A stretch of 64,000 bases of DNA from Promethearchaeia archaeon (GTDB lineage Archaea; Asgardarchaeota; Lokiarchaeia; Sigyniarchaeales; SOKP01), in contig JAHQWK010000002.1 in NCBI GenBank assembly GCA_029856145.1, forward strand, positions 32,001 through 96,000. The letters are read 5' to 3'. The position numbers and the translations under genes are program-made. The notes beneath the pieces were generated by a model. The model was not told the origin of the DNA. It saw only the letters and a list, made by a program, of their open reading frames with translations, and searched no databases. Within the stretch, counting starts at the first letter, position 1. Each line of letters starts with the position of its first letter. Below are positions 15,503 to 33,500 of this stretch, one piece after another.

Positions 15503-16438
15503 ATTACAAAAAGAATTTCAGTAATAGGCCTCGATAACGCCGGTAAGACTAGTATTATAACAGTTATTACCAGACGCTTCGGTTTTGAAGATGAGATAGC
15601 TAGATTAACACCAACAAGAAGAATTGCCCGCGATTCATTTAAATTTCTTGGTATTGAATTTACGAGAATGGATTTTGGAGGTCAAAAACAATATAGAGAA
15701 GAGTATTTAAAACATCCAAAAAAATATCTTAGTGGAACAGATTTAATGTTCTATGTTATAGATGCTCAAGATTTTAATCGGTATATAGAATCTATAGATT
15801 ATTTAGAAGAGGTTTTACTTTTTTTCAAGGAAGAACAAGATTATGTTCCAATCTGCATTCTTTTTCATAAGTTCGATCCCCAACTTGTAGATGATGTACA
15901 AATCAATAAAAGAATTCTCACTTTAAAGCAAGCATTAACAAGGTACTCTAATGATTTTGACATATTTTTCTTTGAGACGACAATTTTCGATATAAAATCA
16001 ATTATGGATGCCTTCTCAAGCGGGTTATCCATGTTATTCGAGAAGATGGAAATGGTTTCACAATTATTTTCAGAAATTAGTAAAAACTATAATTCCATTC
16101 TTATAGCATTATTTGATTCTAAGGGGGTAACTCTAGGAGAGTATTATAGGTCTCATCTCCAATTGAAGGAAAAAATAAAGATTTATGAAATTTATTTAGA
16201 ATTACAAAAGCGTGTAGTTGCCGAGAATAGAACCCTTCTTGAGTTTTCAGATAAATTTGAAAGTGGAGAAAGGTTTTCAGGTATAATTGAAGTTCTCCAA
16301 TTCGGAAATCTTGATTTTTATTTATTATTTATTGTCGAAGAAGATAAAGCTGATTTAGAGAAAACAATATCACTTATAGATAGAATTGAATCAGCAAAAC
16401 CTCAAATGAAGAATCTTATTTTACAAATAATTCAATAA
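15503..16438 (+). CDS. Rag/Gtr1-like small GTPase with C-terminal roadblock-like domain; probable ATT start
   Basis: Frame extends 55 codons upstream of the listed ATG and includes GLDNAGKT and PT; then DFGGQ, HKFD, TTIFD; in-frame TGA at 15494-15496. Confidence 0.85.
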   Translation: MTKRISVIGLDNAGKTSIITVITRRFGFEDEIARLTPTRRIARDSFKFLGIEFTRMDFGGQKQYREEYLKHPKKYLSGTDLMFYVIDAQDFNRYIESIDYLEEVLLFFKEEQDYVPICILFHKFDPQLVDDVQINKRILTLKQALTRYSNDFDIFFFETTIFDIKSIMDAFSSGLSMLFEKMEMVSQLFSEISKNYNSILIALFDSKGVTLGEYYRSHLQLKEKIKIYEIYLELQKRVVAENRTLLEFSDKFESGERFSGIIEVLQFGNLDFYLLFIVEEDKADLEKTISLIDRIESAKPQMKNLILQIIQ

Positions 16439-16701: not shown

Positions 16702-17007
16702 TTAAGACGAAGGAACATAAATTTTCAATTTTAAGGATGAGTCAAATAATTTAATCAAACCTTCTTCTTCATATTGTTTTAAGAGTAATTTTACTGTGGA
16801 GACTCTAATATCATATCTAAGAGCGATATCTGTTGCTAGAATTGTCTTTTTCTTTAAGATTGATTCTTTTATTTCTTTTTCAAGCTGTTTTGGAATAAAA
16901 GCATCTCTCTCAACAACATTTATTTGTTTAGTTCTTCCATATTTTCTTCTTAGGTTTAGCGTAGTCTTTCTCACTATTTGCTTTTCTTCCTTTTCTGGCA
17001 TCAACAA
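16702..17007 (-). CDS. rps25e: 30S ribosomal protein S25e (eS25)
   Basis: ~100 aa basic protein with winged-helix ILATDIALRYDIRVSTVKLLLKQYEEEGLIK...IYVP. Confidence 0.8.
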   Translation of the reverse strand: MLMPEKEEKQIVRKTTLNLRRKYGRTKQINVVERDAFIPKQLEKEIKESILKKKTILATDIALRYDIRVSTVKLLLKQYEEEGLIKLFDSSLKLKIYVPSS

Positions 17008-17149
17008 TCACATATTATTAATTTAAATATTGAAAATAAAGGCTGAATGAAATTATAAATATTTAAAATTTAATAAAATTTTTGTTTTAATAGTAAACAT
17101 TAGATTTCTAGGTTTATTAGCTAATTAAAATATTCAGACTCAATAGAAT

Positions 17150-17782
17150 TTGAGCGATAATTATAGTTTTAACATTAAAAGAAGAAGACCAGAAGAAATC
17201 TATAATAATGCCTCAGACTACTTTAGAGGAGAAATCTTAGAACAATATGCTACCTCTAAAAATATTATGAAAATACAAGAAAAAATTACAATCCGAGCAT
17301 TAGAGATTTTAAATCTTAGTGAAAAAGATGTTCTTATTTTGGATGCTGGTACTGGTCCCGGATTTACAGCAATGTATTTAAATGAAATAGGATATAAAAC
17401 TGTGGCTATTGATATAATATCAGAGTTCTTAAATTATTATGATATAAAAACTTTAAATCCCGTTGCATCAGATATGTGTTTTCCACCTTTTAAACCGCAT
17501 ATTTTTGATGCTATTATCTCAATTTCCTCATTGCAATGGATCTATAGAGAACTAAATAATAAATCGATGAAGGATCAGATAATTAATCTAGCAAAATCTT
17601 TCTATATGATTTTAAAACCCAAAAAAAAAGTTGTATTTCAATTTTATCCTAAAAATAGAGACATTCTTGACAGAATTGGTAAAATATTTTTAAATGAAAC
17701 TGCTTTTACCGGCCACTTTATTATAGATAATCCTAAAAGCCCAAAGAAAAGGAAGATTTTTTTGTTTTTAGAAAAGGATTGA
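17150..17782 (+). CDS. Bud23/WBSCR22-like SAM-dependent rRNA guanine-N7 methyltransferase
   Basis: RPEE, IQEKITIRALEILNL, ILDAGTGPG, FDAIISISSLQW, FQFYPKN, IIDNPKSPKKRKIFL follow the Bud23 motif order. Confidence 0.8.
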   Translation: MSDNYSFNIKRRRPEEIYNNASDYFRGEILEQYATSKNIMKIQEKITIRALEILNLSEKDVLILDAGTGPGFTAMYLNEIGYKTVAIDIISEFLNYYDIKTLNPVASDMCFPPFKPHIFDAIISISSLQWIYRELNNKSMKDQIINLAKSFYMILKPKKKVVFQFYPKNRDILDRIGKIFLNETAFTGHFIIDNPKSPKKRKIFLFLEKD

Positions 17783-17930
17783 CATTTCTTCATTTTCTTA
17801 TTCTTATTTTCTAATGAAATTCCAAATTTTCTTAAAACAGAATTAGTTTCAGTATTTTTTTATAGATAATATTAAATTAAGATTTTTCTATATGTTAGTT
17901 AAAAAAATTTAACCACAAACTTATAAAAAA

Positions 17931-20900
17931 ATGATTAAAATGAATATTTCTAAAAATACTCAAATAAAAGGACTTAGTGTTCTCTTTCTTATTACTATAA
18001 TTCCTTTAATATTCGGATTACTACCAAATTCAAATGTAAATCTAGATAATTCTGTCGAAAGTGGACAAAATCAGGAACCAAAGAATTTACAGCTAGGTTT
18101 ACCACCAACTTCTTATGATTGGTGGAACAATTCGTGGAATTTCCGAGTTCCTGTATCAATTGAAGCAGTAGGGAGCCAACAAGAGGCACCAGTTGAGCTT
18201 TATATAAATTTTACTGAATACTTTGATGATTTAGATATACAAGATTCTGTGTTAAATATATCAACTATCCGTGTAATTGAATATTTCTCAAGTTCCAGTT
18301 ATTATGAAGTCGAGAGTCAATTTGACCCATATTTAAATTCTTATGATAGCCAAACCAATGCAGCAGGAGATTTAATTTGGATATTAAATGGTACAACTCC
18401 AAACGGGCAAATTCGGGATTTTTTTATTTATTTTAACAATGGAACGGATTTTAAGATTACCGATCCAAATTATGACACTATAAGGCTTTGGCATGAAGGT
18501 TTTGAGGATTATCAGTCTGGAGATATTGTAAGACCGATTGATGGACAAGATAATTATCATCCAACTTTCTGGGAAATCAGTAATTCAACTTCAGCAAGAG
18601 GAAGTTCCTCTCTGCGGATTTGGGGAAATTGCTGGAAAATGTCTCCTACAGGTTCAATGCCTGTAAATTCAGACATGAGAGTTACTGCAAAAATGAGATT
18701 TGACGATCCGAGTATTCAAAGAGAAATTTCTGGAATTGGATTCGATAATTCCCCAAATAATATTCCTAGTAGTGCAAATAGTTATAATATACGAGGTTCC
18801 CAATCTTGGGGTGCTGCAGGCGGTTATAAATTTAGAAATCAATATTACGCAGCAAACACCTTTTTCTGGTATACATTCATTCCTAGCACGGAATTTTCTT
18901 TAAGTCCATTTACTCACATCGTTTATGTAGCTGATGATGACAGTTGGACAAGTCTTGATTTGTATTGGGATGATATTTCGATATGGAATAAACCTGTCCA
19001 GACAACTCCAAATAATTCAATTCAAACAACAATGGGAGATATTCAACCAATCGCCTATACATTAAAAGTTATTTGTAAAGATGAAGATAGTAATCGTGTT
19101 TCTAATGCTCACATTTACTTAACCAATAACAATTTTCCTTCATACAACCAAGATCATGAAACTGATGAGAATGGTGAATGGACATTTGAAGGAATAGAAA
19201 AGGATGCATTATATAATATCACAGCTAACTATACGCAAAATGGTCTTACTAATCCAAAAACGGCTACAGTATTTTCTTATGAAAATTATCCAATTACCCA
19301 ATTGAACAATCGGATTATTGCTTATCTTAACTTAGCAAAATTCAACTTTGATATAAAAGATAAAGATAATGATTCGATTCAATATGGTTTTGTTCTACTC
19401 AAAGATGGAACAGAAACTGTAGGAAAAACGGTACTTAGCGATTCTGGGACTGGATCCATTACATGGGTAAATACCACAGCTTATGACTACGAAGCTTACT
19501 ATGATTATGATTCACTTCCAGATATATCAACGTATAGATATTCAAATTTACTGATTCATAATAATTCGATAATATCTAAAGATATTGATGTAAATACTGA
19601 AATTACAAAAACAACTTTTAATGTTACTGATAGTACTGTGGAGAAGGTACCTTTTACTAATGCTAAATTAAGATTTTATAACACATCTGATTATGATATT
19701 GAGCACCAAATAATTGCTAATGTGACAGTTGATATTAATGGATTAGCCACATTCATCTCATTCAGCAACACTTATGGAACTTGGGGAGATTATACAGTAG
19801 ATATCTATTTTGGTGGTTCTGAACAAGACTTTCATGTTGTTGGAGGTCCACCTTTAGTACATGAGCATGATTTCATTTTAAGGACTGAAAACTATACACA
19901 GATTGAAATACCTTTGAATAAGGATCTATATAATTCTACTGTGAATATAATAAGTTATACTTCTAATGTATTTTGGGGAGATGATATTACAATAAACTTC
20001 AATTTTACAGCACAATATCCTCTTGGGCCAACGCCCACATTAGTAGATCCAGATGAACTAACCATACAAATGTATGAAGAACAAATAACTCCTTATGGAG
20101 GAGATGTCGATATTCTAGCTTCGAGGATTTCTACTGGAGTTTTTAGCTATACATTTAATACAGGAGATTTCAACTTAAATGGAGATTCTATTTATTACTT
20201 CAGAATTACTGGAAATTATAAGAGTTATGTATTTATAGCTTTAGATGTAAAATTCATCTTCATTCAGGGATTACCAACTGGGATAACATATTATGACTAT
20301 TCTTTAACAGAGTTAACTGATCAAAGATTTTCAGTAATATTTGGCGAATCTGTCAACATAACTGTTGATTATTTTAATAGCTATACCAATGCTTCTTTAG
20401 ATGGAGCTTATATTACATACGATTGGGATTATGGTTCTGGAATCCTCCTTGATGATCCATTACACGCGGACCTATATTATTTTGAATTTGATTCTTCAAC
20501 AACACCCAATAGCGCTGAATATATAATCGATATTGAAGCAACACTTACAAATTTTAGCACTATTGATGACTCAATTATTGTCGCAATCCAACCTAGACCC
20601 ACCACTATTAATGGAACAGCTACTCTCTTTCAAAAGTCACCCAATATCTATGTTTTTGACTCCGTTAACTATTTATTTGAATATAAAGATGCCCTACGAG
20701 ATATTACACTCGGAAATTTAGATGTTATTAGATATTATTGGAATAGGTTAGATGAAAATGGAGATCCTCTTAGTGGCTCTGGAAACGAAGGAAGCGGATT
20801 TTTGAGCAGTGGACCAAATAATTTGTATATTCTAGATTTCGATACAGAACTGAGAGAAGTTGGAGAATATTCTTTATTTGTTACAATGCAAAAAAATAAT

Positions 20901-21605
20901 TATGATGTCAGAAATGCCATTATATTATTAACAATCAGCAAGAGACCGATAACTATGGATTTGAGTGCTACAGGATTATCTGGTAATAGAGTAAATATTG
21001 TTCAGGGGAGATTGATTAATTTTAGTATTATTCTCACTGATGAGACTGATGGAATCCAATCATTAACTGGAGCAAATGTAACATTATGGCTCAATGGAAA
21101 TGATATTTCAGTGGATGAAGTTCTTGGTTCACCTGGGACATATGAATTAATCTTCCCTACTGGCAATATAAATGCCTTCTTTATGCCTCAAACATTAACA
21201 GGTCAAATCACAGTGGAATTAGAAAATTACGAGATAGCTCCAAGATCTATTACAGTTGTAGTAGGAATGACAGAAATTTTCCCTGGATTTCCAATGTTTT
21301 ATTTCTTGCTAATAGTAGGGGCAGTAGTAGCAGTAGCGGGTAGTTTAGCCGCATATCGCATGATTCAAAGAGCTCGAATCCCTACATTTGTGAAAAAAGT
21401 AAGGCAGATGAAAAGTATTATCAAATCCAAAAAGACAATTTCAGATTCGCTTCTATATCCTTCAAAAGAGGAATATATCATAAAGAATTTAAGAGATAAA
21501 TGGGATCAACTTGGATTATCATTAGAAGATATTTTAGGTTTGGAAGAAAAGAAGAAGAAGAGTTTGCCAGAATTTACAGGAGAATATAAAACAGGTGAAG
21601 AATAA
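17931..21605 (+). CDS. large single-pass surface glycoprotein, module 1 (DUF2341-like + variable beta domain + Ig-like repeats + TM + cytoplasmic tail)
   Basis: N-terminal signal/TM, WWNNSWNFRVPVSI, many NxS/T sequons, C-terminal TM then RARIPTFVKK tail. Confidence 0.85.
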   Translation: MIKMNISKNTQIKGLSVLFLITIIPLIFGLLPNSNVNLDNSVESGQNQEPKNLQLGLPPTSYDWWNNSWNFRVPVSIEAVGSQQEAPVELYINFTEYFDDLDIQDSVLNISTIRVIEYFSSSSYYEVESQFDPYLNSYDSQTNAAGDLIWILNGTTPNGQIRDFFIYFNNGTDFKITDPNYDTIRLWHEGFEDYQSGDIVRPIDGQDNYHPTFWEISNSTSARGSSSLRIWGNCWKMSPTGSMPVNSDMRVTAKMRFDDPSIQREISGIGFDNSPNNIPSSANSYNIRGSQSWGAAGGYKFRNQYYAANTFFWYTFIPSTEFSLSPFTHIVYVADDDSWTSLDLYWDDISIWNKPVQTTPNNSIQTTMGDIQPIAYTLKVICKDEDSNRVSNAHIYLTNNNFPSYNQDHETDENGEWTFEGIEKDALYNITANYTQNGLTNPKTATVFSYENYPITQLNNRIIAYLNLAKFNFDIKDKDNDSIQYGFVLLKDGTETVGKTVLSDSGTGSITWVNTTAYDYEAYYDYDSLPDISTYRYSNLLIHNNSIISKDIDVNTEITKTTFNVTDSTVEKVPFTNAKLRFYNTSDYDIEHQIIANVTVDINGLATFISFSNTYGTWGDYTVDIYFGGSEQDFHVVGGPPLVHEHDFILRTENYTQIEIPLNKDLYNSTVNIISYTSNVFWGDDITINFNFTAQYPLGPTPTLVDPDELTIQMYEEQITPYGGDVDILASRISTGVFSYTFNTGDFNLNGDSIYYFRITGNYKSYVFIALDVKFIFIQGLPTGITYYDYSLTELTDQRFSVIFGESVNITVDYFNSYTNASLDGAYITYDWDYGSGILLDDPLHADLYYFEFDSSTTPNSAEYIIDIEATLTNFSTIDDSIIVAIQPRPTTINGTATLFQKSPNIYVFDSVNYLFEYKDALRDITLGNLDVIRYYWNRLDENGDPLSGSGNEGSGFLSSGPNNLYILDFDTELREVGEYSLFVTMQKNNYDVRNAIILLTISKRPITMDLSATGLSGNRVNIVQGRLINFSIILTDETDGIQSLTGANVTLWLNGNDISVDEVLGSPGTYELIFPTGNINAFFMPQTLTGQITVELENYEIAPRSITVVVGMTEIFPGFPMFYFLLIVGAVVAVAGSLAAYRMIQRARIPTFVKKVRQMKSIIKSKKTISDSLLYPSKEEYIIKNLRDKWDQLGLSLEDILGLEEKKKKSLPEFTGEYKTGEE

Positions 21606-22708
21606 TGCCAATTGGATTAGTTGTAATGAGATGGAATGAGAGAGTGGGTACTGAATTACTGAACAAGTATCCTGAAGAAATGGAAATAACAGATAAGACA
21701 CTTATGCAAATATATAGTACTCATGAATACAGTGGAGAATCTGGGTTGGTTAGTTTAATGATTGGATCCTTAAACATTGCTTCTTACTACACAGGCCCAG
21801 AAAATGAATACTATGTAATTCTCCTATTAAATATTGATGAAGATCCAGATTCTTATGAAGAAGGTTTAATAGACGTTTCTCGAATTATTATACAAAATTT
21901 AGATGGCGATGCTTATTTTAAAATGATACCTTCTATTTTTCAAAGATTATCTGTGTATCCTACCCTTAATATTGAACAGAAACTTGCATTCACATATTAC
22001 GATAAGGTTAAACGGATGATTATTAACCGTTTAAGGGAAGATGGTGCTGTATCTAAATCAGAGATTACAATCTGGTTAAAGGATCAGTATAAACAAGGTT
22101 TTCTCAATATAAACGCAGATATAATGGAATTAATTAAACGTGATATAATTAAACAAGTATCTGTAAAAGGAGTTCCTTCAGAATTAATATTTCTGATAAA
22201 CGACATCGTATGTATGCGTGTTCCACCCGTGAAATTAGTGAAAGATCCGTTAGATCGCGGTTTACCTTCTAGACTAGTAGAAAATTATAAAACAGAAGTT
22301 AAAAAATTCTTTCTAGACTATAATCCTACAGAGGCAGATAACTTAAGGGTATTAGATGTTCTTACTAATCCTCAAGCTTATGAAACTCTACGTTTATTAA
22401 GAACTGCAATTGTAACGAGGAATGATCTAGAAAAGCTAAGAAAGAAGGGTATAGACGATCTCGATAATATATTAAAAATGCTTTGGGAAACTCAAATTGT
22501 GCAAATCTTTCGGGATGAAAACGAAAATGAATATTATGCACTTCTTTCTGATTTTTATTTAGATCTGATATTCCCCAAGTATCTAATGAATGTTATAAAA
22601 ATGAATTATATCAAGAAATCAAAAGCCGAACCAGTTCTGATAGAATATCTCACTATACTTGAAGATAGTTATATTAATAGAAAAGCAACAAGAAAATCTA
22701 AAACATAA
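21605..22708 (+). CDS. cytoplasmic longin/uDENN-like + tandem winged-helix protein, module 1 partner
   Basis: TAATG overlap with the upstream gene; WNERVGTELLNKYP motif; paralog of 27753 and 34356. Confidence 0.75.
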   Translation: MPIGLVVMRWNERVGTELLNKYPEEMEITDKTLMQIYSTHEYSGESGLVSLMIGSLNIASYYTGPENEYYVILLLNIDEDPDSYEEGLIDVSRIIIQNLDGDAYFKMIPSIFQRLSVYPTLNIEQKLAFTYYDKVKRMIINRLREDGAVSKSEITIWLKDQYKQGFLNINADIMELIKRDIIKQVSVKGVPSELIFLINDIVCMRVPPVKLVKDPLDRGLPSRLVENYKTEVKKFFLDYNPTEADNLRVLDVLTNPQAYETLRLLRTAIVTRNDLEKLRKKGIDDLDNILKMLWETQIVQIFRDENENEYYALLSDFYLDLIFPKYLMNVIKMNYIKKSKAEPVLIEYLTILEDSYINRKATRKSKT

Positions 22709-22750
22709 AAATTTTTTTCTATTTTTTTATTTTTTTATTTTTTATTCTTT
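22709..22750 (+). terminator. archaeal oligo-T terminator
   Basis: Repeated T runs directly after the stop; similar tracts follow modules 2 and 3 (28866-28910, 35472-35500). Confidence 0.5.
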
Positions 22751-23233
22751 AGAGCTTTTAAATCTTAGAAAAAAGGATGCTTAAATTTTAAATGCCGGTA
22801 CTGGTCCAGAATTTACTGCTATTTATCTAAATGAAATAGGATATAAAATTGTGGCTATTGATATTATTTCAGAATTCTTAAATTATTATAATATAAAAGG
22901 GTTAAATCCTATTGCCTCAGTTATGTGTTTTCCTCCTTTTAAATCAAATATTTTTAATATTATTATCCCTATCTCTGCTTTACAATGGATTTATAGAGAT
23001 ATTAAATATGAAAAAATGCACTTTTTGTTAAAAAGTCTGTCTAAATCTATTATTCAGATTTAAAATCATTCTCTCAAGTGATAATTCAATTTTATCCCTA
23101 GAATAAGGAAATATTGGAAAAAATCGGTAAAATTTTTACAGAAAACACTGCTTTTTATGGAAATTTTATAATAGATAATCCAAATAGACCGAAAAAGTGA
23201 ATGATTTAACTTTTACTAAAAAAGAAGACATAA
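22749..23233 (+). pseudogene. 5'-truncated, decayed copy of the Bud23-like methyltransferase
   Basis: Reads LELLNLRKKDA*ILNAGTGPEF...ISALQW...(frameshift)...IQFYP*NKE...IIDNPNRPKK*; aligns to 17300-17782. Confidence 0.93.
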
Positions 23234-23379
23234 TTTGAGAGTTAGACTTGATATTTTATATAGAACTCTTTTCTATTTTGTATATTAGAACTTATTTATT
23301 TACATAATATTTTATTTAACTTCTCCCATGATATTGTTAAAAATTATATCTAAAAATTTCAAATTAGAATGATGATTTT

Positions 23380-26300
23380 ATGACAATACAAAATAAACAT
23401 AAATATCGATTAAAACAAGCATCATTACTGTTGATAATACTTTTTTTAAGCCTTTTTCCAACATATTTAGCAAATTTTTCTAATTTTACAAACGATATTG
23501 AGAATAACAAGAGTACTGAAACTTTTAATATAGAAAACCTAAATCCTAGTGTTTTAGGTAATGATACTTGGTGGGATACTGATTTTGCTAATCGCCGATT
23601 AATCATTATTACAAATCCTTATGATGCTAAATTTACTGATTTTGGAGTAAGTGCGACGTTTAATTATGCAGAATTGGGTAGTTTAATTCAATCTGATCTA
23701 GATGATATAAGAATCGTAGAGAATGGTGTTTTACGAAAATATTACGTTGTTAAAGATTACCCCTCAACAAATTTAGCTACTGTATGGTTTGACACTAATG
23801 CATCACAATCTACAACTGAAAGAGACACCTATCTTTATTTTGGAAACAGTTTAGCTGGAAATACTGAAGCTAGTACTATGATAGATAGTTTTGGTTGGGT
23901 TAAAAATGGGGATTTTGAATTAGATAATAGTACTGATCAATATTTTGATCCTTATGGATGGACTTTTTCTCATGATCAAGTTGATCAAATTAAAGATATA
24001 AGTGATGCAAGGGAAGCTTCAAATTATTCATTGGACAGCTATATTAATTTTGAAAATAATCTAGTCCATATAGATGATCTTTCTACATCGGCTGAAAGAG
24101 TAGAATCGGGATATTATGCTTATAAGTGGGGAGCTCAGGGTTCCTTGCTCCCTCAAGTAGCATGTAAAGATTATGTAGGAACGTTTTATTCTTATCCCTT
24201 TAAAGTTCCAATAATAGAAGGAGGAGAAATTAGTTTAAATCTTTATCGCAATGTAAGAACCTGGTTTTTCGAAGACCCAGATTCTTCTCTCCCTACAATT
24301 TCTGAAGATGGCTATTTTCTAAGGATGTGTAATGGATCAGATTCAAAATATACAGCTGATGTCGATTTGCATGAAAATATTGGAAGCGGTTATGATAGCT
24401 GGTTGGAAACATATGGAGGATTTGCTTATATTTCACCAAATAAGAAAACATTGAGATATCATGATGAATTAAAGGAACATTTTGAATTAGACCCTGAAAT
24501 ATATACTAGATCAGACACGAGTTCAGATGGAGATTTGACTGGTTCTTTAGAGATTGATGTTACTGATTATATGGGTGAAGAAATATTCATAGAATTTGGC
24601 ACTTGGGGTCCAGAAGATGGCGATGTTCAAACGATAAAATCAGGATTCTTTCAAGTAGATGACGTAAGGTTTAATTACACATTATCAGCAGAAGTTCAAG
24701 AATTACAAGCGCAAGTATCATCAATAGATGTAATTGTAAAAGATATTGATGGAAGGAGTGTTCCTACAGCAGATATAATGATCATTGACAATTCTTATAC
24801 GAAAGGATCACCAAATTATAACGTTGCAAACGGAACAACTATTAACGGGAGAATTACTTTCAGTAATATACCTATTGGTTATTATAATATTACTGCGAAT
24901 TATACGTTAGGTTCTCAGAAAACTGAGGTGTTCAATAGTATTAAATCGGGTATAGGTCCATATTATTTTAACGGAATAAATTATACTGTTAATATCCAAC
25001 TGGATATATGGACTATTGATTTTGAAATAGTAGATTGGGATGGTATTCCATTGAAATATAGTTATATTGAGATTAATGAAAGTCAAGGAGGACCTTTATT
25101 AGATACATTAACACTTGATGATACTGGAAAAGCAACTTTTCGATGGTTAAACAGCTCGAGTTATTATTATAAAGTTTACTATAATAATGACGATTATGGT
25201 AGCAATTTCAGCCCCGTTCCTTTAAATGAAAGTTACATATATCGAAGTGATTATATTCAGGACAATGTGAAATTTAGACATCATACTATAAATGTGAATG
25301 AAACTAGTATAGGGAGCTATTCAGTAAGTGAGCGTTTCTATACAGATGGGTCGCGAACTACATTAGGGAATAAAAAAATAATTGAAGCTAGTATTACTCT
25401 GACGGATATGGAAAATTACATGACAGATATTTCTATTTATTATATAGATAAGGATGACTTAATAGTAGGAAATCGTATTTATTATAAGGAATATATTAGT
25501 TCTAATGTTACAGATGATTTGATTGAACTTGATATTTCTCATATAAATAATGATCATTTAAAAAGTGATAATTATGAAGTATATGGATTATTAGTTGAGG
25601 TTAATGGGTTTAATGCTACACTATGCAATGGTATCGTTAAAGTTGATTTAGTTGAAACTTGTAATGTTTATACAGAAACCCCAATAGCTCGATTAAATAT
25701 TCGATTAACGTACTTTAGCGATATAGATAAAGAATATAAACCATTAAGCGGAACTATTAAAGTGATTGATAATGCTACTGGACAGCCTTTAGTAAACCTT
25801 TCGGCATTTTCAAGTAGGGATGGATACGCCTATGCTCCAAAAAATTCTTATGAAACCCCCTTTTGGTATTTAATCGGGAGGGTATATAATTTTTCAATAG
25901 ATGTTCCTGATAATCCAAATGTGGATTTTAATATTACATATATCGATCCACCGCAATGGATACCCGCACCTGGAGAAAAAATTAAGGAATACAACTATAC
26001 ACTTTATAAAAACTCAACAATCACTTTTAATGTAATACCAGAAACAGTTGTAAATTTTACACAATATGATACATCGTTCAATATGTCTTATAGTACAAGT
26101 GAAGTATTATGGGGAGAAAACATGAATTTCTGGGCAGAATTTTTATTTACCAACGACAACTGGCAAACCTCAGATTATGTCTCAAAACCTCCTGGTAGCT
26201 GCATTTTAACAATAAGATTAGCAGGCTCAGAAGAGATCTTGAGAACCGTAGAGATGGATTATCTTAGTAATGGTAATTATACATTAATCTTTAATTCTGG

Positions 26301-27753
26301 ATTGATTTCAGCTGGAAATGATAGGGAATATTATGATGTTGAAATAAACGGATATCACCCGATATATGACAATCCAACTCCGCTAGTTTATTTAGTAAAA
26401 GTAATAGCAAAACCAACGACAATGAGCGCGCACGATTATGATTCACTTGCGGTAATACCCTCTAAAACATACTTAGTATATTATGACGAACTCATAAATA
26501 TAACAGTTAGATATTCAGAAACTGAATTTGGAACTTCTTTAACTAATGCTCTTCTAAGTTATGAATGGATCGGTCTCAATCCGATTAGTTTCTTTTCTGA
26601 TCCTTTAAATAGTGATTATTATACATTTACAATTAATACGGCAGATGCGCAGAGTACCGGTTTAAAAATAATTAGTATAACAGCCTCTTTTGAAAATTAC
26701 ACTACACAATCAGACTTCTTAGTTTATCTTAATATACTTGATAGAAAAACGACTCTTAATGACCAATCTGAGGACTTATATTACATTAGTTCAAGGGTAT
26801 ATGTCCAAGATCAGAGAAACTTCATTTTCACGTACCAAGACGCCGATACATTTGATATAATTGGGGATTTAGCTATTTCTAATTATGTTTGGGAAGAATT
26901 ATATGATAATGGAACAAAAGTTCCTGGTAGCTTTGGTTCAGGAACTTTAACTCAAAATTTAAACCATAGCTATACTTTAGATTTTAACACGGAATTAAAA
27001 CCAGTTGGATACTATTTCTTGTATGTTACCTTAAAACAAGACAATTATGAACAGAAAAATGCCTTTATTTATTTGGAAATAATGCTGAGAGAATTTTCAG
27101 TTACAATCCAAGAACCTCAGTTAGGGAGTAACAATCAAATTGTTATAGCTCAAGGTAGTGATATTGATTTTGAGATCCACTTATGGGATGATACTAGAGG
27201 AGAAGAACTGCAAAATGCGATTGTTAAATTTAATTTTAGAGGTACAACTTATATATTGGATCCAATTCCAACTGAACCAGGTGCTTACAACACATCAGCA
27301 TTAACCAGAGATATTGATACATTCTTTATGGCACAGACTTTTGTAGGGAAAATTTACATTGAAGCCGCTAATTTTACTAGCCAAGAATTCACAATCACTA
27401 TTACAGTGAAAATGCAGGAGATATGGCCCGGAATGCCAACCTTTTACTTCATTATAATAACAGCCGCGATTGTTGGTGTTGTAGGAAGCGTAGTTGGATA
27501 TAGAGTTATCCAACAAGCAAGAATACCCAAGCATGTTAAAAAGATCAGAAAGGTTAAAGGCTTGATAAAATCCAAAAAGAAAATCACTGAATCATTTTCG
27601 GTATCAACTAAAGAACTAATGATGGTAAAAATATTTGGAGATGATTGGAAGGAAATTGGGCTCTCAATCGAAGAAGCATTAGGAATAGCCGACCTAAAAA
27701 AGAAATCTTCATTAAAAGATAAAATAACAACGGAAAGAGGTGAAAACGAGTAA
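23380..27753 (+). CDS. large single-pass surface glycoprotein, module 2
   Basis: Signal/TM, WWDTDFANRRLIII DUF2341-like start, GWVKNGDFE CBM-like insert, TM then QARIPKHVKK tail. Confidence 0.85.
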   Translation: MTIQNKHKYRLKQASLLLIILFLSLFPTYLANFSNFTNDIENNKSTETFNIENLNPSVLGNDTWWDTDFANRRLIIITNPYDAKFTDFGVSATFNYAELGSLIQSDLDDIRIVENGVLRKYYVVKDYPSTNLATVWFDTNASQSTTERDTYLYFGNSLAGNTEASTMIDSFGWVKNGDFELDNSTDQYFDPYGWTFSHDQVDQIKDISDAREASNYSLDSYINFENNLVHIDDLSTSAERVESGYYAYKWGAQGSLLPQVACKDYVGTFYSYPFKVPIIEGGEISLNLYRNVRTWFFEDPDSSLPTISEDGYFLRMCNGSDSKYTADVDLHENIGSGYDSWLETYGGFAYISPNKKTLRYHDELKEHFELDPEIYTRSDTSSDGDLTGSLEIDVTDYMGEEIFIEFGTWGPEDGDVQTIKSGFFQVDDVRFNYTLSAEVQELQAQVSSIDVIVKDIDGRSVPTADIMIIDNSYTKGSPNYNVANGTTINGRITFSNIPIGYYNITANYTLGSQKTEVFNSIKSGIGPYYFNGINYTVNIQLDIWTIDFEIVDWDGIPLKYSYIEINESQGGPLLDTLTLDDTGKATFRWLNSSSYYYKVYYNNDDYGSNFSPVPLNESYIYRSDYIQDNVKFRHHTINVNETSIGSYSVSERFYTDGSRTTLGNKKIIEASITLTDMENYMTDISIYYIDKDDLIVGNRIYYKEYISSNVTDDLIELDISHINNDHLKSDNYEVYGLLVEVNGFNATLCNGIVKVDLVETCNVYTETPIARLNIRLTYFSDIDKEYKPLSGTIKVIDNATGQPLVNLSAFSSRDGYAYAPKNSYETPFWYLIGRVYNFSIDVPDNPNVDFNITYIDPPQWIPAPGEKIKEYNYTLYKNSTITFNVIPETVVNFTQYDTSFNMSYSTSEVLWGENMNFWAEFLFTNDNWQTSDYVSKPPGSCILTIRLAGSEEILRTVEMDYLSNGNYTLIFNSGLISAGNDREYYDVEINGYHPIYDNPTPLVYLVKVIAKPTTMSAHDYDSLAVIPSKTYLVYYDELINITVRYSETEFGTSLTNALLSYEWIGLNPISFFSDPLNSDYYTFTINTADAQSTGLKIISITASFENYTTQSDFLVYLNILDRKTTLNDQSEDLYYISSRVYVQDQRNFIFTYQDADTFDIIGDLAISNYVWEELYDNGTKVPGSFGSGTLTQNLNHSYTLDFNTELKPVGYYFLYVTLKQDNYEQKNAFIYLEIMLREFSVTIQEPQLGSNNQIVIAQGSDIDFEIHLWDDTRGEELQNAIVKFNFRGTTYILDPIPTEPGAYNTSALTRDIDTFFMAQTFVGKIYIEAANFTSQEFTITITVKMQEIWPGMPTFYFIIITAAIVGVVGSVVGYRVIQQARIPKHVKKIRKVKGLIKSKKKITESFSVSTKELMMVKIFGDDWKEIGLSIEEALGIADLKKKSSLKDKITTERGENE

Positions 27754-28865
27754 TGCCTATAGGATTAGTCATAATGAGGTGGGATATAAAAGTAAGTACA
27801 GAAATCCTTGCTAAATATCCTGAGGAACTTATTATTAGTGATGAGACTTTAATGCAAATCTATGCAGCACATGAATATACAGGAGAACCAGGCATGATAA
27901 GTTTATTAGTTGGACCTTTAAATATCGCTTCATATTACACAGGACGAGAAAAACCACTTTATATCATCTTACTGTTGAATTTAGATGAAGATGCTGATAC
28001 CTATGAAGGAGGTTTATCAGACATTTCACGGGTAATATTCCAAAATTATGAAGATAATGCCTATCTGGAGATGATTCCGTTTCTATTCCAACGTTTATCT
28101 ATATATCCTCATTTGAATGAAGAACAAAGTTTAGCCGTCACCTTTTCAGATAATGTAAATCGATTGATAATAGAGAGATTAAGAGAAGAGGGGGTTATTA
28201 CTAAATCAGAATTAAAGATATGGTTAAAAGATAGATATAGAGAGGGCTTTTTTGATGTTGATGCAATTTTAATGGAATTAATTAAAAAAGAAATAGTAAA
28301 AGAAACATCAGTAAAAGGAATGCCTTCTGAATTAATCTTTCTTATTAACGATCTTTTCATGATAAGAAGACCTCCAATTAAACTACTCAAAAATCCTGTA
28401 GAACGTGGACTTCCGGAGAGATTTCTCGAGGAATACAATGTTGCAGTAAGAAAATTCTTCCAAAAGTATCGTCCCTCAGAAGAAGATAATATTAAAATTT
28501 TAGATGAAGTTATTGGAGACCCCCAAGTCTATGAAATTCTGAAACTTCTAAGAATTTCAATTGTTACTAAAAATGTATTGGAGAAACTCCGTAAAAAAGG
28601 TGTCGATGATATAGATGGAGGCTTAAAGAAATTATGGGAAAATCAAATGATTCATGTATTTCAAGATAGTAAAGGAAATGAGTACTATGCTTTAATTTCT
28701 GACTTTCATAATTCAATAGTTTATCCTAAATACATGTTAAATACGATTATTTATCAATATAGAGTAAAATCAAAATCAAATAGTGTTTTGATCGAATATC
28801 TAAATGTTCTTGATGATAATTATCGATCTATAAAATTTAAAGCTGAAGTACAGGAAGAAGAATAA
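27753..28865 (+). CDS. cytoplasmic longin/uDENN-like + winged-helix protein, module 2 partner
   Basis: TAATG overlap; MPIGLVIMRW...KYP; paralog of the other two partners. Confidence 0.75.
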   Translation: MPIGLVIMRWDIKVSTEILAKYPEELIISDETLMQIYAAHEYTGEPGMISLLVGPLNIASYYTGREKPLYIILLLNLDEDADTYEGGLSDISRVIFQNYEDNAYLEMIPFLFQRLSIYPHLNEEQSLAVTFSDNVNRLIIERLREEGVITKSELKIWLKDRYREGFFDVDAILMELIKKEIVKETSVKGMPSELIFLINDLFMIRRPPIKLLKNPVERGLPERFLEEYNVAVRKFFQKYRPSEEDNIKILDEVIGDPQVYEILKLLRISIVTKNVLEKLRKKGVDDIDGGLKKLWENQMIHVFQDSKGNEYYALISDFHNSIVYPKYMLNTIIYQYRVKSKSNSVLIEYLNVLDDNYRSIKFKAEVQEEE

Positions 28866-28932
28866 AATTTAATACTTTTTTTTATATTTTTATCAATATT
28901 TTTTTTAAATAAAATAATTATAATAATTTCTA

Positions 28933-29970
28933 TTAATTAGTTAAATAACCTTTCAATTTATTTGCTTTTTCATGAAATTCCTTATAGAGATTATCGTCCC
29001 CTAATTCAAGGCATAAATCAGAAATTTTTTCAAAATACTCAGCGGTTTGGGCAATATCTCCATTTTCTAAACTAAGTTTTGCTTGATGGATTAGTTGATC
29101 TCTTTCGAATAAAGGTTTTAATAACGGTGAGGCATCAGTACTAACCTCTAGGATATCTGCTATAATTTGAATCATCTTTTCTCGATTATCCGGTTCAATT
29201 GCAACCATTGAATATGTTTTCAAACCAAGTATTTCTTCAATTTTTTGCACATTTAAGGCATCAGTTAAATCTTGTTTGTTCCCTATTATAGCAGTGTGGG
29301 CATGGGGGGCATGTTCCTTTACTAATTCAATAAAAAATTTACTTTTTTCTACATTTTCCAATGTAGAGTCTGTAATGATAAGAACAGCATCACTACCAAG
29401 AATAAACTCATTCCATAGGTAGCTAAATTGTTCTTGTCCAGCAAAATCCCATAAGTGAAAATATAATTTTCCAATTTTAATAGTTGAAATTTTTCCTGTA
29501 ATAGTAGGAATATGTACGGATGGGATCTCAGTAGCACATATTAGTTTCGTAGTAGTTGTTTTTCCAACACCTGAAAATCCTACTAAAGAAATCTTTGTCT
29601 TAAGATTTCTATGAATGGAATCTATTATTGGATCAAGTAATTCCATAAGAGATGTATCTAAATTATCTAAAGCATCACCAAATGTATCTAAAAATTCGCT
29701 TTGAAGATTTGCTAGTTCGCGTTTAGTTCGTGAGAGTTCGTCATTAATATCAGTTATAAACATAAACGTTAATTTTAAATCCTCTTCTAATGCAAAAACT
29801 AATTTGTATTTAATATAATCATAGCTGTTAAGTTCTATCCCTGTACCTTTTGTAGATACTTCGATTATCTCCTGATAAAGTTTATTAAAATCCTCCTCAT
29901 ATATTCCTTTGCCGAAGTTCTTATTGTATATTATTTTTTCATCCTTTAAAATATAAACTTGCCTTAACAT
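28933..29970 (-). CDS. longin-domain small GTPase (Arf/Rab-like) with C-terminal helical extension
   Basis: N-terminal ~120 aa longin-like domain; GFSGVGKTT, PT, WDFAGQ, NKQD. Confidence 0.88.
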   Translation of the reverse strand: MLRQVYILKDEKIIYNKNFGKGIYEEDFNKLYQEIIEVSTKGTGIELNSYDYIKYKLVFALEEDLKLTFMFITDINDELSRTKRELANLQSEFLDTFGDALDNLDTSLMELLDPIIDSIHRNLKTKISLVGFSGVGKTTTTKLICATEIPSVHIPTITGKISTIKIGKLYFHLWDFAGQEQFSYLWNEFILGSDAVLIITDSTLENVEKSKFFIELVKEHAPHAHTAIIGNKQDLTDALNVQKIEEILGLKTYSMVAIEPDNREKMIQIIADILEVSTDASPLLKPLFERDQLIHQAKLSLENGDIAQTAEYFEKISDLCLELGDDNLYKEFHEKANKLKGYLTN

Positions 29971-30501
29971 ATTTCCCCGTCTAATTCTTATAAAATTTTA
30001 AAAATAAAGAAGTCAATTTATCTTTTTTTAAAGTTACAAATATAACTTTACTATTTTTCTTTGATTCTACAATCTAAATTTAAATATTTAAATTTTGAGA
30101 AATTGAAAAATATGAAAGGCATAAGATAGAATTATTGAAATTATATTTAAACTCAAAAAAAAGAAATAGATGAATGGTTGCATTATTTACATGCATTTTA
30201 CAACTGGGTATATCATTTCATGGCAAAATTTTGATTTTATTTCCATTTATTCTAATAAAATCTTATTTGAAAAAAGAATCGTTTAAGTGTTAACAAACTT
30301 TTCGAAAATAAATCATTTATTTCAAATTATGTACACTCTAACTTATGTCTTAAAAATTTGTTGTAAAACTATCAAGAATATATCGTGGTGTTACTCATAA
30401 ATAAAAAGTTAAATAGGAAAATTTGTATAATAAATGATAAAAAACTCTTTTTTTAAAAAATTTAAAATAAAAACAATCTAATAAATAAATTGATAATAAA
30501 C

Positions 30502-33500
30502 ATGAATAGACTAAATAGAAAAACAAAAAAGGTAATTTCTGTAACCTTTTTATTGATTCTTTCATTGAGCTCGGTTTTAATTATGTTTCCATCAAATGTT
30601 TCGAATTCAGTAGATTTTAATGAAAAAACAGAAGAAGACAGAGAATCTAATCTTATCCGTCCATTATTAAATGCACCAATAGGAGAAGATCCTTGGTGGA
30701 ACGTATCATATCAGTGGCGACAATGTATAAATATTACTAATCCTGGAACTTATAATTTAACTGATAATTTCATGAGCATTCAGTTTGATTATGCTACACT
30801 ACGAGATAACTATAATATGGATCCTAATTTGTACGACGTCAGAATAGTAGAAAATAATGTAGTAAGAAATTATTATGTAAAGAAGGACTTTCCTAGAGTC
30901 GATTATGCAACCATCTGGTTCGAAACTAATTCTACCGCTGGTGAATCTGAATATGACACATTTATGTATTGGGGAAATGCCTCTATTAACTATCGTGGGA
31001 GTAAGCATGTTGATTTTGACCCATCTGGAACAGCGTGGTGGAGTTTTGAAGAAGGTACTGGAGTTCAAGACTCCGCTGTAGAAGATTCATTGGGTCTTGC
31101 TGATGGTCATCTCTATGGGACTGGGGGTAATTATCCTGTTTATGATTCAGATAGTGCCGTAGGTTCTTATTCTCTTGAATTTGTTGGGAATAATGATTTT
31201 GTTTATATAAATGATTCATTGCATTTTACAGAACCAAACGAAATTTCTGCGGTGACTGTCAGTCTTTGGTTTAAAACCTCCGCCAATATAGGTGACTGGA
31301 CACAAAATTGGGCTTTTTTCGATTTTGATAGATCTGAGTATTTTAACTTCTTTATAAGACCAGATGACGGAACATTAGGTTTTTGCAGTGCAGCTTCAGG
31401 ATATAGTGGTCAGAATGATTTTTATAGTAGTACTACAGGTTTGAATGATGGAGCGTGGCACTTTGCTTGCATAGTATATGATGGTTCTGACAAAATTATT
31501 TATGTTGATGAGGGTGTAGAAGATGCAAGATGGGTAAATGCAATGGGTGGACGAGCTTTCGGAACAGGAACTGATAGATGGGGCTTTTTTGGTGATGGTT
31601 CAGAGGCAACAGGAGTAAATGGTGGGAGAAACAATAGGTATTACGAAGGAAATATGGATGAAATTAGGTACTTTGAGTATGCAGTTGCACCAGATGAAAT
31701 TCAATGGTTGGCAAATTATTATTCTGTTGATATAGATCTATTACCAGTTACAGAACGAGCAGCTGCAGTGACTGTTTTAGTAAAAGATATTGATGACCGA
31801 TTAGTTCCTGGAGCTGAAGTCTCTTTATGGAAAAATTCTACACATATCTTAGAAGTAGATGGAACTCCCTATACAGAATATACTTTACTTGATGGCACTG
31901 TGTCTTTTACAAAAGTTCCATTCGGATTTTACTACATTAGTGTAAATTATACTCTAAATTCAGGATTGTATGAAGAAGTAGTATATGATAGCAGAATTCA
32001 ACCTCCTGGACAAATAGAATTTAAAGGTTTGATTGTCGATGTCAATGTTACTGCGGATCTTTGGACAATAGATTTTGAAGTAGATGATTGGGATGGAGAT
32101 CCATTTAACTATGGATTTGTAAAGGTAGGTAATGCCACTGATTATGTGTTAGAGACTCTAACCTTAGATTCTGATGGAAAAACGACTTTCCGGTGGACAG
32201 ATCAACCCAGTTATAACTATACTGTATATTTTGATAATATCGATTATACAGAATATCCAACTCAGTTAAATTATAGTATTATTACATACACAGGTCAAGA
32301 TATTTATCTTGAATATGTGAAAACAAGTATGTCTAAATTAGATATACGAGTCATTGATGACACAGAGACCGTACCTGTTGAAGGTATTACTGTTAGAGTT
32401 GAAAACAGCACATCAGGCGAACATATAATAGATCTTAAAACGGATGATAATGGTACTGCTTATGGATTGATTAATAGTGATTTAGAATTTTGGTATTTAA
32501 GAGAAACTCTTTATAATTTTTCCTTATGGGTGGTGACTGAACAACGTACATTTAGGGTAAATTATTCAGATCAAGCCTTTAATCCGGATACGATTTTAGA
32601 TTACTATGAATACACATTAAATTCAGCTTCTTCCTTAGTATTTGAATTAGATTTGAACTACCAAAATAGATTATCTCAATTTCAAAATGGAAGTCTTGTT
32701 GCGGATTACAGTATTACTTATGGCCAAAATATGTCATTTTCCATAACCTTAGAAACTTCTGATAATGGTCTACCCGGACCCTGGACAACTGATGATGGTG
32801 TTGGGACAACAATTAGTTGCATAATAAAAAGTACTGCGATTGGAAACCCAACAGTATATACAGAGGATATGAAATATACAATAAATGGAATATTTACCAT
32901 TGAGATTAACTCAAGCAGATTTTCTGCAGGAGATTATGGTAAATCCTATATTGTAACTCTATCAGGAATAAAGTCATATTACAATAGTCCAGAAGATGTT
33001 TTATTCGTTATATCGATAGATTCAATGGCTACTGGTATGAGTTTCCATGACTATTCATCAATGCCTGATGAATTGCTAACTAATGAAGTTTCTCAATATT
33101 ATGATGAACTGATCAACATAACAGTAAGATATTATGATTTCATCAATGATGCTCCATTAGTCGCGGATACATTTACATATGATTGGGATTATGGCTCTGG
33201 TACAGTAAATCCTGATCCATTAAATCCTGGATATTATACAATTGAGATCGATACATCAGCAGCAACCAATGTTGGTAAATACCTTATTGAGATTACAGCT
33301 GGACTTGAGAATTATACAAAGATTGATGACGAGGGATTTTTTATTAACATCCTATCAAGACCTACAACTATTAACGGTGAAGATGGAATTTTATATGTCT
33401 CTCAAAATATCTTTATATTTAAAGAACTGAATTTTACTTTTAACTATTTAGATGAGATGAGAGGTACTCCTATTTCAAGCTTGGACGAGATGAGTTATCT

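What the first reader, a model, noticed from the sequence alone, without database searches (positions are those of the whole stretch)
18480..31710. Swappable ligand-binding slot at the same position in all three receptors
Seen: after the DUF2341-like segment (...YFNN / YFGN / YWGN) each paralog carries an unrelated domain. Module 1 (~18480-19000) has a beta-rich HEGFE...YWDDISI domain. Module 2 (~23890-24675) has a GWVKNGDFE...QVDDVRF CBM-like domain. Module 3 (~31025-31710) has a clear LamG domain. All three then rejoin at V.(C/V)KD.D.(R).V..A. Inference: a cassette slot for different lectin/jelly-roll domains on a common stalk, giving different specificities (glycans, partner cells).
Basis: partly seen in the sequence, partly recalled or inferred. 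Interest (0 to 1): 0.72.

Follow-up and report, generated by a model that had tools for sequence, protein, structure and literature searches.

The report
Paralog-specific lectin heads on Asgard receptors
Three neighbouring surface-protein genes of an Asgard archaeon share stalk, membrane anchor and tail but carry three different sugar-binding-type domains at one position near the tip; the pattern is real, yet each domain is an old, stably inherited feature of its gene lineage, not a freely swapping cassette.

Summary
M1 (17931-21605), M2 (23380-27753) and M3 (30490-34356) are collinear single-pass surface proteins. They lose all detectable similarity in one segment: 18447-19046, 23875-24720 and 31000-31764. 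They rejoin at V[IL][CV]KDxD.

Across about 230 relatives the same position holds at least seven sequence types: LamG, T1, T2, T4, T5, T7 and PA14. One close pair has 66% identical N-domains and 49% identical stalks around about 200 unrelated residues. Domain replacement at this position did happen.

It is not an active cassette:
- Each type is tied to its own N-domain and stalk.
- Each slot evolves about as slowly as the stalk (71-84% against 78-84% between congeners).
- The M1-M2-M3 trio is syntenic in a congener.
- No donor copies or boundary repeats exist.
- Apparent swaps on the C-terminal tree are stalk or tail recombination.

Verdict: paralog-specific lectin-like heads fixed by ancient domain replacement. 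Ligand binding is inferred, not shown. Interest is moderate.

The parts
17931..21605 (+). M1 receptor gene (1224 aa): N-terminal hydrophobic signal/anchor, diverged DUF2341-like N-domain, T1 slot, Ig-like stalk, TM (21285-21353), basic tail
   Evidence: 25 NxS/T sequons in the ectodomain and none in the TM plus tail.
18108..18446 (+). M1 N-domain (aa 60-172), T1-type variant of the DUF2341-like domain
   Evidence: Family HMM E 9e-30. It forms a separate long-branch clade together with every T1-slot protein.
18447..19046 (+). Slot 1 (T1, aa 173-372): CBM-like beta jelly-roll with no Pfam family
23380..27753 (+). M2 receptor gene (1457 aa), TM 27430-27498
23551..23874 (+). M2 N-domain (aa 58-165), DUF2341-like
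   Evidence: Pfam DUF2341 16.9 bits, below the 23.4 cut-off. 45% identical to the M3 N-domain.
23875..24720 (+). Slot 2 (T2, aa 166-447): CBM4-like beta jelly-roll with large insertions and no Pfam family
30490..34356 (+). M3 receptor gene (1288 aa from TTG; database records start 4 codons later), TM 34030-34098
30673..30999 (+). M3 N-domain (aa 62-170), DUF2341-like
   Evidence: Family HMM E 2.5e-46. Orthologs carry precomputed PF10102.
31000..31764 (+). Slot 3 (T3, aa 171-425): LamG / concanavalin A-like domain
   Evidence: Pfam Laminin_G_3 E 7.5e-12, 46.1 bits against a cut-off of 27.6, aa 233-405.
21605..22708 (+). Partner 1 (367 aa), start overlaps the M1 stop
   Evidence: 71% identical to partner 3.
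27753..28865 (+). Partner 2 (370 aa), start overlaps the M2 stop
34356..35471 (+). Partner 3 (371 aa), start overlaps the M3 stop

Best explanation
M1, M2 and M3 are paralogous type-I surface glycoproteins of a family present in most genomes of this Asgard class.

Each protein has these parts, from the outside in:
- a membrane-distal head of two domains: a DUF2341-like domain followed by a lectin-type beta-sandwich (the 'slot');
- a stalk of 750-900 aa of Ig-like domains, rich in N-glycosylation sequons;
- one transmembrane helix;
- a conserved basic tail;
- a cytosolic partner gene whose start overlaps the receptor's stop.

The second head domain belongs to a different domain family in each paralog lineage. 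It is LamG_3 in M3, which is probably the ancestral state. It is one of two different CBM-like jelly-rolls in M1 and M2. Elsewhere in the family it is PA14 or another type.

These differences arose by a small number of ancient domain replacements at a domain boundary. In several cases the N-domain changed along with the slot. Since then each head has been inherited vertically under purifying selection.

The genome therefore keeps a fixed set of three receptors with three different, conserved recognition heads. The ligands are most probably glycans or glycosylated surfaces.

Shown: the architecture, the folds, the domain families, the boundaries, the conservation and the synteny.
Inferred: that the heads bind ligands, that the ligands are carbohydrates, and the direction of replacement.
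For: Architecture and boundaries.

Domain families and folds:
- Slot 3 is Laminin_G_3, 46.1 bits.
- Slot 1 and slot 2 models have pLDDT 90.6 and 84.5.

No sequence relationship between slot types:
- hhalign probability is below 1% for T1 against T2 and T1 against T3.

Replacement rather than decay in place:
- The slot 1 core matches 2-6 tandem copies in bacterial CAP-domain, S8-peptidase and cadherin-like proteins, at 26-34% identity and E down to 4e-30.
- L035 carries PA14 (35.4 bits against a 24 cut-off) at the same position, while its stalk is 51% identical to its LamG-bearing tandem neighbour L034.
- L031 (T4) and L038 (T5) have 66% identical N-domains and 49% identical stalks, with about 200 aa between them at background identity and sharp breakpoints.

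Stability:
- 168 homologs fall into three large slot clusters plus two singletons.
- The N-domain tree follows slot type.
- Between the window and congener G102, slot identity is 84, 84 and 71%, against 82, 78 and 84% for the stalk.
- G102 has the same gene order.
- Only three copies exist in this genome.
- No boundary repeats were found.

LamG as ancestral state:
- The long relatives carry 2-3 tandem DUF2341+LamG_3 units (Pfam E 3e-54 and 6.5e-18).
- LamG occurs in the outgroup and in most ingroup clades.

Outside-facing ectodomain:
- Each protein has 25-35 NxS/T sequons before the TM and none after it.
Against: - No binding data exist, and no sugar- or Ca-binding residues were examined.
- All slot types begin with an aromatic-x-F/W-E/D...FE strand and end with a D-D/E-I/V-x-I/F/Y strand, and all share a jelly-roll architecture.
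- T2 against T3 gives a collinear hhalign alignment over 208 columns at probability 20%, E 0.0012. Extreme divergence in place cannot be excluded for that pair.
- The C-terminal tree used for polarity is itself disturbed by recombination.
- Only 40 of more than 250 genomic matches were inspected for slot type.
Confidence: 0.68

Rival explanations
1. Divergence in place. All slots descend from one ancestral jelly-roll, LamG-like, that sat after DUF2341. The paralogs drifted beyond sequence recognition while keeping the edge strands that pack against the neighbouring domains.
For: - All types share the same fold class and the same first and last strand motifs.
- T2 against T3 gives a collinear hhalign alignment at probability 20%.
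- The structural hit lists of slot 1 and slot 2 overlap heavily: 8xmz, 5x7o, 4bj0, 8jiy and 2q1f.
Against: - Slot 1 is significantly similar to modules in unrelated bacterial proteins (E 4e-30) but not to its paralogs.
- PA14 occupies the same position in L035.
- L031 and L038 have 66% and 49% identical flanks around a slot at background identity. Uniform drift cannot produce that pattern.
- Within each type the slot evolves about as slowly as the stalk.
Confidence: 0.17
2. Active cassette exchange. The slot is shuffled frequently between paralogs or from donor copies by recombination or gene conversion, which diversifies specificity on short time scales.
For: - Slot type changes 7 times on the C-terminal tree, where the minimum is 4.
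- The paralogs lie in tandem in the same orientation.
- Recombination between paralogs does occur.
Against: - The discordant cases are mosaics of stalk or tail, not of the slot. P0076 is T2-type for aa 1-1100 and carries a stalk block 60-72% identical to a long LamG paralog. P0099 differs only in its last 200 aa or so.
- The N-domain tree follows slot type.
- There are no extra copies in the genome.
- No repeats occur at the boundaries, and no recombinase or reverse transcriptase was seen among the neighbours examined.
- The trio is syntenic and 71-84% identical in a congener.
Confidence: 0.05
3. The slot domains are not ligand-binding heads. They could be structural or oligomerisation modules, or enzymes: GH16/GH131-like glycanases or lyase-like domains share this fold.
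For: - GH16, GH131, glucuronan lyase and Stig cyclases appear among the structural neighbours.
- No binding residues were checked.
Against: - The best neighbours are non-catalytic CBMs, MAM and reelin domains.
- LamG_3 and PA14 are typically binding modules (general knowledge of these Pfam families).
- The position at the distal tip of a long glycosylated stalk fits recognition.
Confidence: 0.08

Closest known systems
DUF2341-LamG (PF10102 + PF13385) surface proteins of bacteria and archaea
   Same: M3 and most family members carry this pair. The long relatives carry 2-3 tandem copies with strong Pfam scores.
   Different: Here the pair tops a family-specific Ig-like stalk with a TM, a conserved tail and a coupled cytosolic partner. 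In M1, M2 and other lineages the LamG partner is replaced by other domain families.
Carbohydrate-binding modules of the beta-sandwich jelly-roll class (CBM4/9, CBM16, CBM22, CBM35-like; e.g. 4bj0, 8xmz, 8jiy)
   Different: No Pfam or PDB sequence match. Not attached to an enzyme. Slot 2 has roughly 100 more residues than typical CBMs of this class. Sugar binding is untested.
Fungal Flo/Epa adhesins (PA14 lectin head on a long glycosylated stalk) and other modular adhesins with exchangeable tip domains
   Same: Lectin-type head at the tip of a long, heavily glycosylated stalk. Paralog families differ in head specificity. PA14 occurs in one family member (L035).
   Different: No homology of the stalk. 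Anchoring here is by a TM helix with a cytoplasmic tail and partner. This is an analogy from general knowledge, not tested here.
Metazoan receptors with MAM/LamG heads on Ig stalks (RPTPmu, neurexins, reelin repeats)
   Different: Fold-level resemblance only. There is no sequence relationship and the cytoplasmic parts differ.

Membership tests
Laminin_G_3 (PF13385), slot 3 | Profile score at or above Pfam's gathering cut-off | tested here: met
   46.1 bits against 27.6, E 7.5e-12, aa 233-405 of M3. Most orthologs carry precomputed PF13385.
CBM4_9-like / galactose-binding-domain-like CBMs, slot 2 | Sequence profile match to a CBM family | tested here: not met
   No Pfam hit in aa 166-447 at E<=0.1. 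The profile search of PDB sequences found nothing relevant.
CBM4_9-like / galactose-binding-domain-like CBMs, slot 2 | Beta jelly-roll fold superposable on solved CBMs | tested here: met
CBM-like jelly-roll, slot 1 | Beta jelly-roll fold superposable on solved CBMs | tested here: met
CBM-like jelly-roll, slots 1 and 2 | Carbohydrate binding | not testable with these tools
   No binding-site analysis or assay was possible.
Unnamed module family of about 130 aa, repeated in bacterial secreted proteins, slot 1 | Significant sequence similarity over the domain core | tested here: met
   phmmer found 73 hits. Outside the receptor family they have 2-6 stretches covering query aa 50-185, with E down to 3.6e-30. 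The T1 HMM finds 90 domains in 54 proteins. No Pfam family covers them.
DUF2341 (PF10102), N-domain | Profile score at or above Pfam's gathering cut-off | tested here: inconclusive
   M2 scores 16.9 bits against 23.4. M1 and M3 give no hit. Some orthologs carry PF10102 and the long relatives reach 65 bits.
PA14 (PF07691), slot of relative L035 | Profile score at or above Pfam's gathering cut-off | tested here: met
   35.4 bits against 24, E 1.2e-8.
Programmed cassette-switching systems (silent-cassette gene conversion, shufflons, diversity-generating retroelements) | Donor copies of the variable segment elsewhere in the genome | tested here: not met
   Only the three genes match in the 3.55-Mb genome. 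That search used the C-terminal part. Slot-only copies were not searched for separately in the genome.
Programmed cassette-switching systems (silent-cassette gene conversion, shufflons, diversity-generating retroelements) | Conserved DNA repeats or recombination sites at the segment boundaries, and a recombinase or reverse transcriptase nearby | tested here: not met
   The repeats in 17000-36000 are only paralog-derived similarity. The neighbours examined are GTPases, a methyltransferase and a RuBisCO-like protein.

The most novel reading that the evidence does not exclude
The position after the DUF2341-like domain is an evolutionary docking site for recognition modules in an Asgard-specific receptor family. 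The tail of these receptors is physically coupled to a conserved cytosolic partner, and the two are fused in one ORF in some relatives. The conserved T1/T2/T3 trio would then be a fixed 'lectin code', by which these archaea recognise distinct glycans on syntrophic partners or on their own surface and relay that inward. This would be a prokaryotic counterpart of eukaryotic lectin-type adhesion and signalling receptors.
Probability: 0.15. Interest if true: 0.8.

Novelty: new member of a known kind. Interest (0 to 1): 0.42.

Why it matters
Asgard archaea live in close contact with partner cells, and how they recognise surfaces is unknown. This family is in 105 of the 121 genomes sampled from the class. 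It offers a small, defined set of isolated head domains (LamG, two CBM-like, PA14 and others) that can be expressed and put on glycan arrays.

The result also corrects the picture. The heads are conserved, lineage-specific recognition modules, not a diversity-generating device. Paralog-specific head domains on a shared stalk are ordinary for surface adhesins, so the evolutionary principle itself is not new.

Tried and rejected
- Pairwise BLASTP of the three slots found nothing.
- hhalign of slot profiles, including a T1 profile enriched with bacterial copies, gave T1/T2 and T1/T3 probabilities below 1%. T2/T3 gave 20%, noted as unresolved.
- Profile searches of PDB sequences with the M1-type and M2-type alignments gave no useful hits.
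- ESM Atlas gave leads only. For slot 1 the scores were 0.85 or lower, to CBM27, CBM_4_9 and Lyase_N clusters. For T5 the score was 0.92, to DUF6645 and to a DUF2341 cluster.
- I first read the 7-8 slot-type changes on the C-terminal tree as swaps. I rejected this after the N-domain tree and the window scans showed stalk and tail mosaics instead.
- Three literature searches (Asgard+LamG+surface; DUF2341; Asgard+carbohydrate-binding+Ig-like+transmembrane) found no description of this family.
- My first region boundaries for the long relatives cut off their 3' ends. The cause was the in-frame partner fusion.
- No model coordinates were available in the script box, so the slot 1 and slot 2 models could not be superposed on each other directly.
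Full report
**What is there**

The window carries three tandem modules on the + strand. Each is a large ORF whose stop overlaps the start of a ~370-aa ORF:
- M1, 17931-21605, 1224 aa
- M2, 23380-27753, 1457 aa
- M3, 30490-34356, 1288 aa

The three large proteins are collinear. From N to C they have:
- an N-terminal hydrophobic segment;
- a DUF2341-like domain of about 110 aa;
- the variable segment;
- a CarboxypepD_reg/Big-like domain and a long beta-rich stalk;
- one transmembrane helix (nt 21285-21353, 27430-27498, 34030-34098);
- a basic tail of about 83 aa.

Each ectodomain has 25-35 NxS/T sequons and the TM plus tail has none. That fits an outside-facing glycoprotein.

**Check of the observation**

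- N-domain end: IYFNNG, LYFGNS, MYWGNA.
- Rejoin: VICKDEDSNRV, VIVKDIDGRSV, VLVKDIDDRLV.

BLASTP between the three slots gives only short, non-collinear matches with E 0.05 or worse. The regions after the slot align at 34% identity (E 1e-92 to 1e-133), and the M2/M3 N-domains align at 45% (E 3e-31).

I aligned 12 orthologs of each type. Across the slot, similarity between types is at background, while similarity within each type is as high as anywhere in the protein. For M2/M3 the transitions are abrupt on both sides.

Two qualifications apply.
- M1's N-domain is itself strongly diverged.
- The stalk has further variable stretches, including an M2-specific insertion of about 150 aa.

**What the slots are**

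| Slot | Window position | Sequence family | Fold evidence |
|---|---|---|---|
| 3 (T3) | 31000-31764 | Laminin_G_3, 46.1 bits | not folded |

All three are lectin-type beta-sandwiches.

At the sequence-family level the three are distinct.
- hhalign gives below 1% probability for T1 against T2 or T3, even with a T1 profile enriched by outside copies.
- T2 against T3 gives a weak collinear signal: probability 20%, E 0.0012, 208 columns.

**Replacement or divergence in place?**

Three results favour replacement.

1. A full HMMER scan of 1.84 billion representatives with slot 1 finds its ~130-aa core as 2-6 tandem copies in unrelated proteins. These have 26-34% identity and E down to 4e-30. They include a Rhodobacteraceae CAP-domain protein, an Omnitrophota S8 peptidase and Pseudomonadota cadherin-like proteins. 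Slot 1 is therefore closer to outside modules than to its own paralogs.

2. In relative L035 the same position holds a PA14 domain (35.4 bits against a cut-off of 24). Its stalk is 51% identical to that of the LamG-bearing gene next to it.

3. L031 and L038 have N-domains 66% identical and stalks 49% identical. Between 'GNPDA.S.S.G' and 'IRKY.PDEP' lie about 200 residues at background identity.

Against full independence, every slot type opens with an aromatic-x-F/W-E/D..FE strand and closes with a D-D/E-I/V-x-I/F/Y strand. A common deep origin of some types, T2 and LamG in particular, cannot be excluded.

**Is it 'swappable'?**

I found no sign of ongoing exchange.

- *Distribution.* The family is in 105 of the 121 genomes sampled from this class, with 1-8 matches per genome.
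- *Slot types.* 168 database homologs with a definable slot fall into three large clusters plus two singletons: LamG 79, T2 61, T1 26. Among 40 further genomic loci I found T4, T5, PA14 and a T7 type. A long class carries 2-3 tandem DUF2341+LamG units.
- *Apparent swaps explained.* Slot type changes 7 times on a C-terminal tree, but two findings account for this. The N-domain tree follows slot type. Window-by-window scans show that the discordant proteins are mosaics elsewhere. P0076 is T2-type for residues 1-1100, carries a 700-aa stalk block from a long LamG paralog, and has a T2-type tail. P0099 is T1-type except for its last ~200 residues.
- *The inherited unit.* It is usually the whole head. 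The T1 N-domain plus T1 slot even occurs on a different body in P0200 and P0204.
- *Rate.* Between this genome and congener G102, slots are 84, 84 and 71% identical, against 82, 78 and 84% for the stalks. The slots are not hypervariable.
- *Synteny.* G102 has the same order: GTPase, methyltransferase, M1+partner, M2+partner, Arf-like GTPase on the opposite strand, M3+partner.
- *No machinery.* The genome holds only these three copies. The DNA shows no repeats at the slot boundaries beyond paralog similarity.

**Most likely history and function**

LamG is the most widespread state. It is present in the outgroup-like long class and in most ingroup clades, so it is probably ancestral. This polarity rests on a tree that recombination disturbs.

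A few ancient replacements produced the T1, T2 and other heads. After that each paralog kept its head under purifying selection.

The natural reading is three receptors with three conserved ligand specificities. The ligands are probably glycans, given the families involved and the position at the tip of a glycosylated stalk. Binding itself is inference.

**Comparison with known systems**

Paralog families of surface proteins with different lectin or CBM heads on a common stalk are well known, for example DUF2341-LamG proteins, CBM-bearing modular proteins and PA14-headed fungal adhesins.

This is a new, uncharacterised archaeal family that shows that principle. Three literature searches found no description of it.

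The same stretch was also noted by first readers in an overlapping window.

Noticed in passing
L044:1-2295 (G106:C94:94000-96294); also the ORFs of about 2650-3000 aa: In the long relatives the receptor ORF runs in frame through the tail straight into the partner protein (...KKLPGTKRTKTERVHDFKPLGLLLMKWDERIGTE...). This natural receptor-partner fusion argues that tail and partner act together.
   Followed up: partly
window 22749-23207 against 17300-17759: The M1-partner/M2 spacer holds a decayed partial copy of the upstream methyltransferase gene, 74% nt identity over 461 nt. In the syntenic locus of congener G102 that spacer is only about 170 nt. The copy therefore looks recent and lineage-specific, not a record of the original module duplication.
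   Followed up: partly
window 21284-21583 against 34035-34334; partners 21605-22708 against 34356-35471: The tails of M1 and M3 are 73% identical at DNA level and their partners are 71% identical in protein, while the ectodomains group M2 with M3. P0099 likewise carries a tail 82% identical to that of a LamG paralog. Tail and partner seem to undergo gene conversion or co-evolution within genomes.
   Followed up: partly
P0076 (1981 aa), P0071, L023: These are mosaic receptors: T2-type head and tail, with a membrane-proximal stalk block of about 700 aa that is 60-72% identical to a long LamG paralog.
   Followed up: partly
P0200 (1101 aa), P0204 (1272 aa): A T1-type N-domain plus T1 slot sits on a different body, with no match to the family's first Ig domain or C-terminal region and a hydrophobic C-terminus. 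The head travels as a two-domain unit.
   Followed up: partly
window 15668-16438 (+), 28933-29970 (-), 35572-36912 (+): A Gtr1/RagA-like small GTPase, an Arf/Roc-like GTPase and a RuBisCO-large-chain-like gene flank or interrupt the array. The two GTPases keep their places in G102.
   Followed up: no
window 25300-25720 (M2 aa about 640-780): M2-type proteins have a stalk insertion of about 150 aa that M1 and M3 lack. Family stalk lengths range from about 750 to more than 1400 aa.
   Followed up: no
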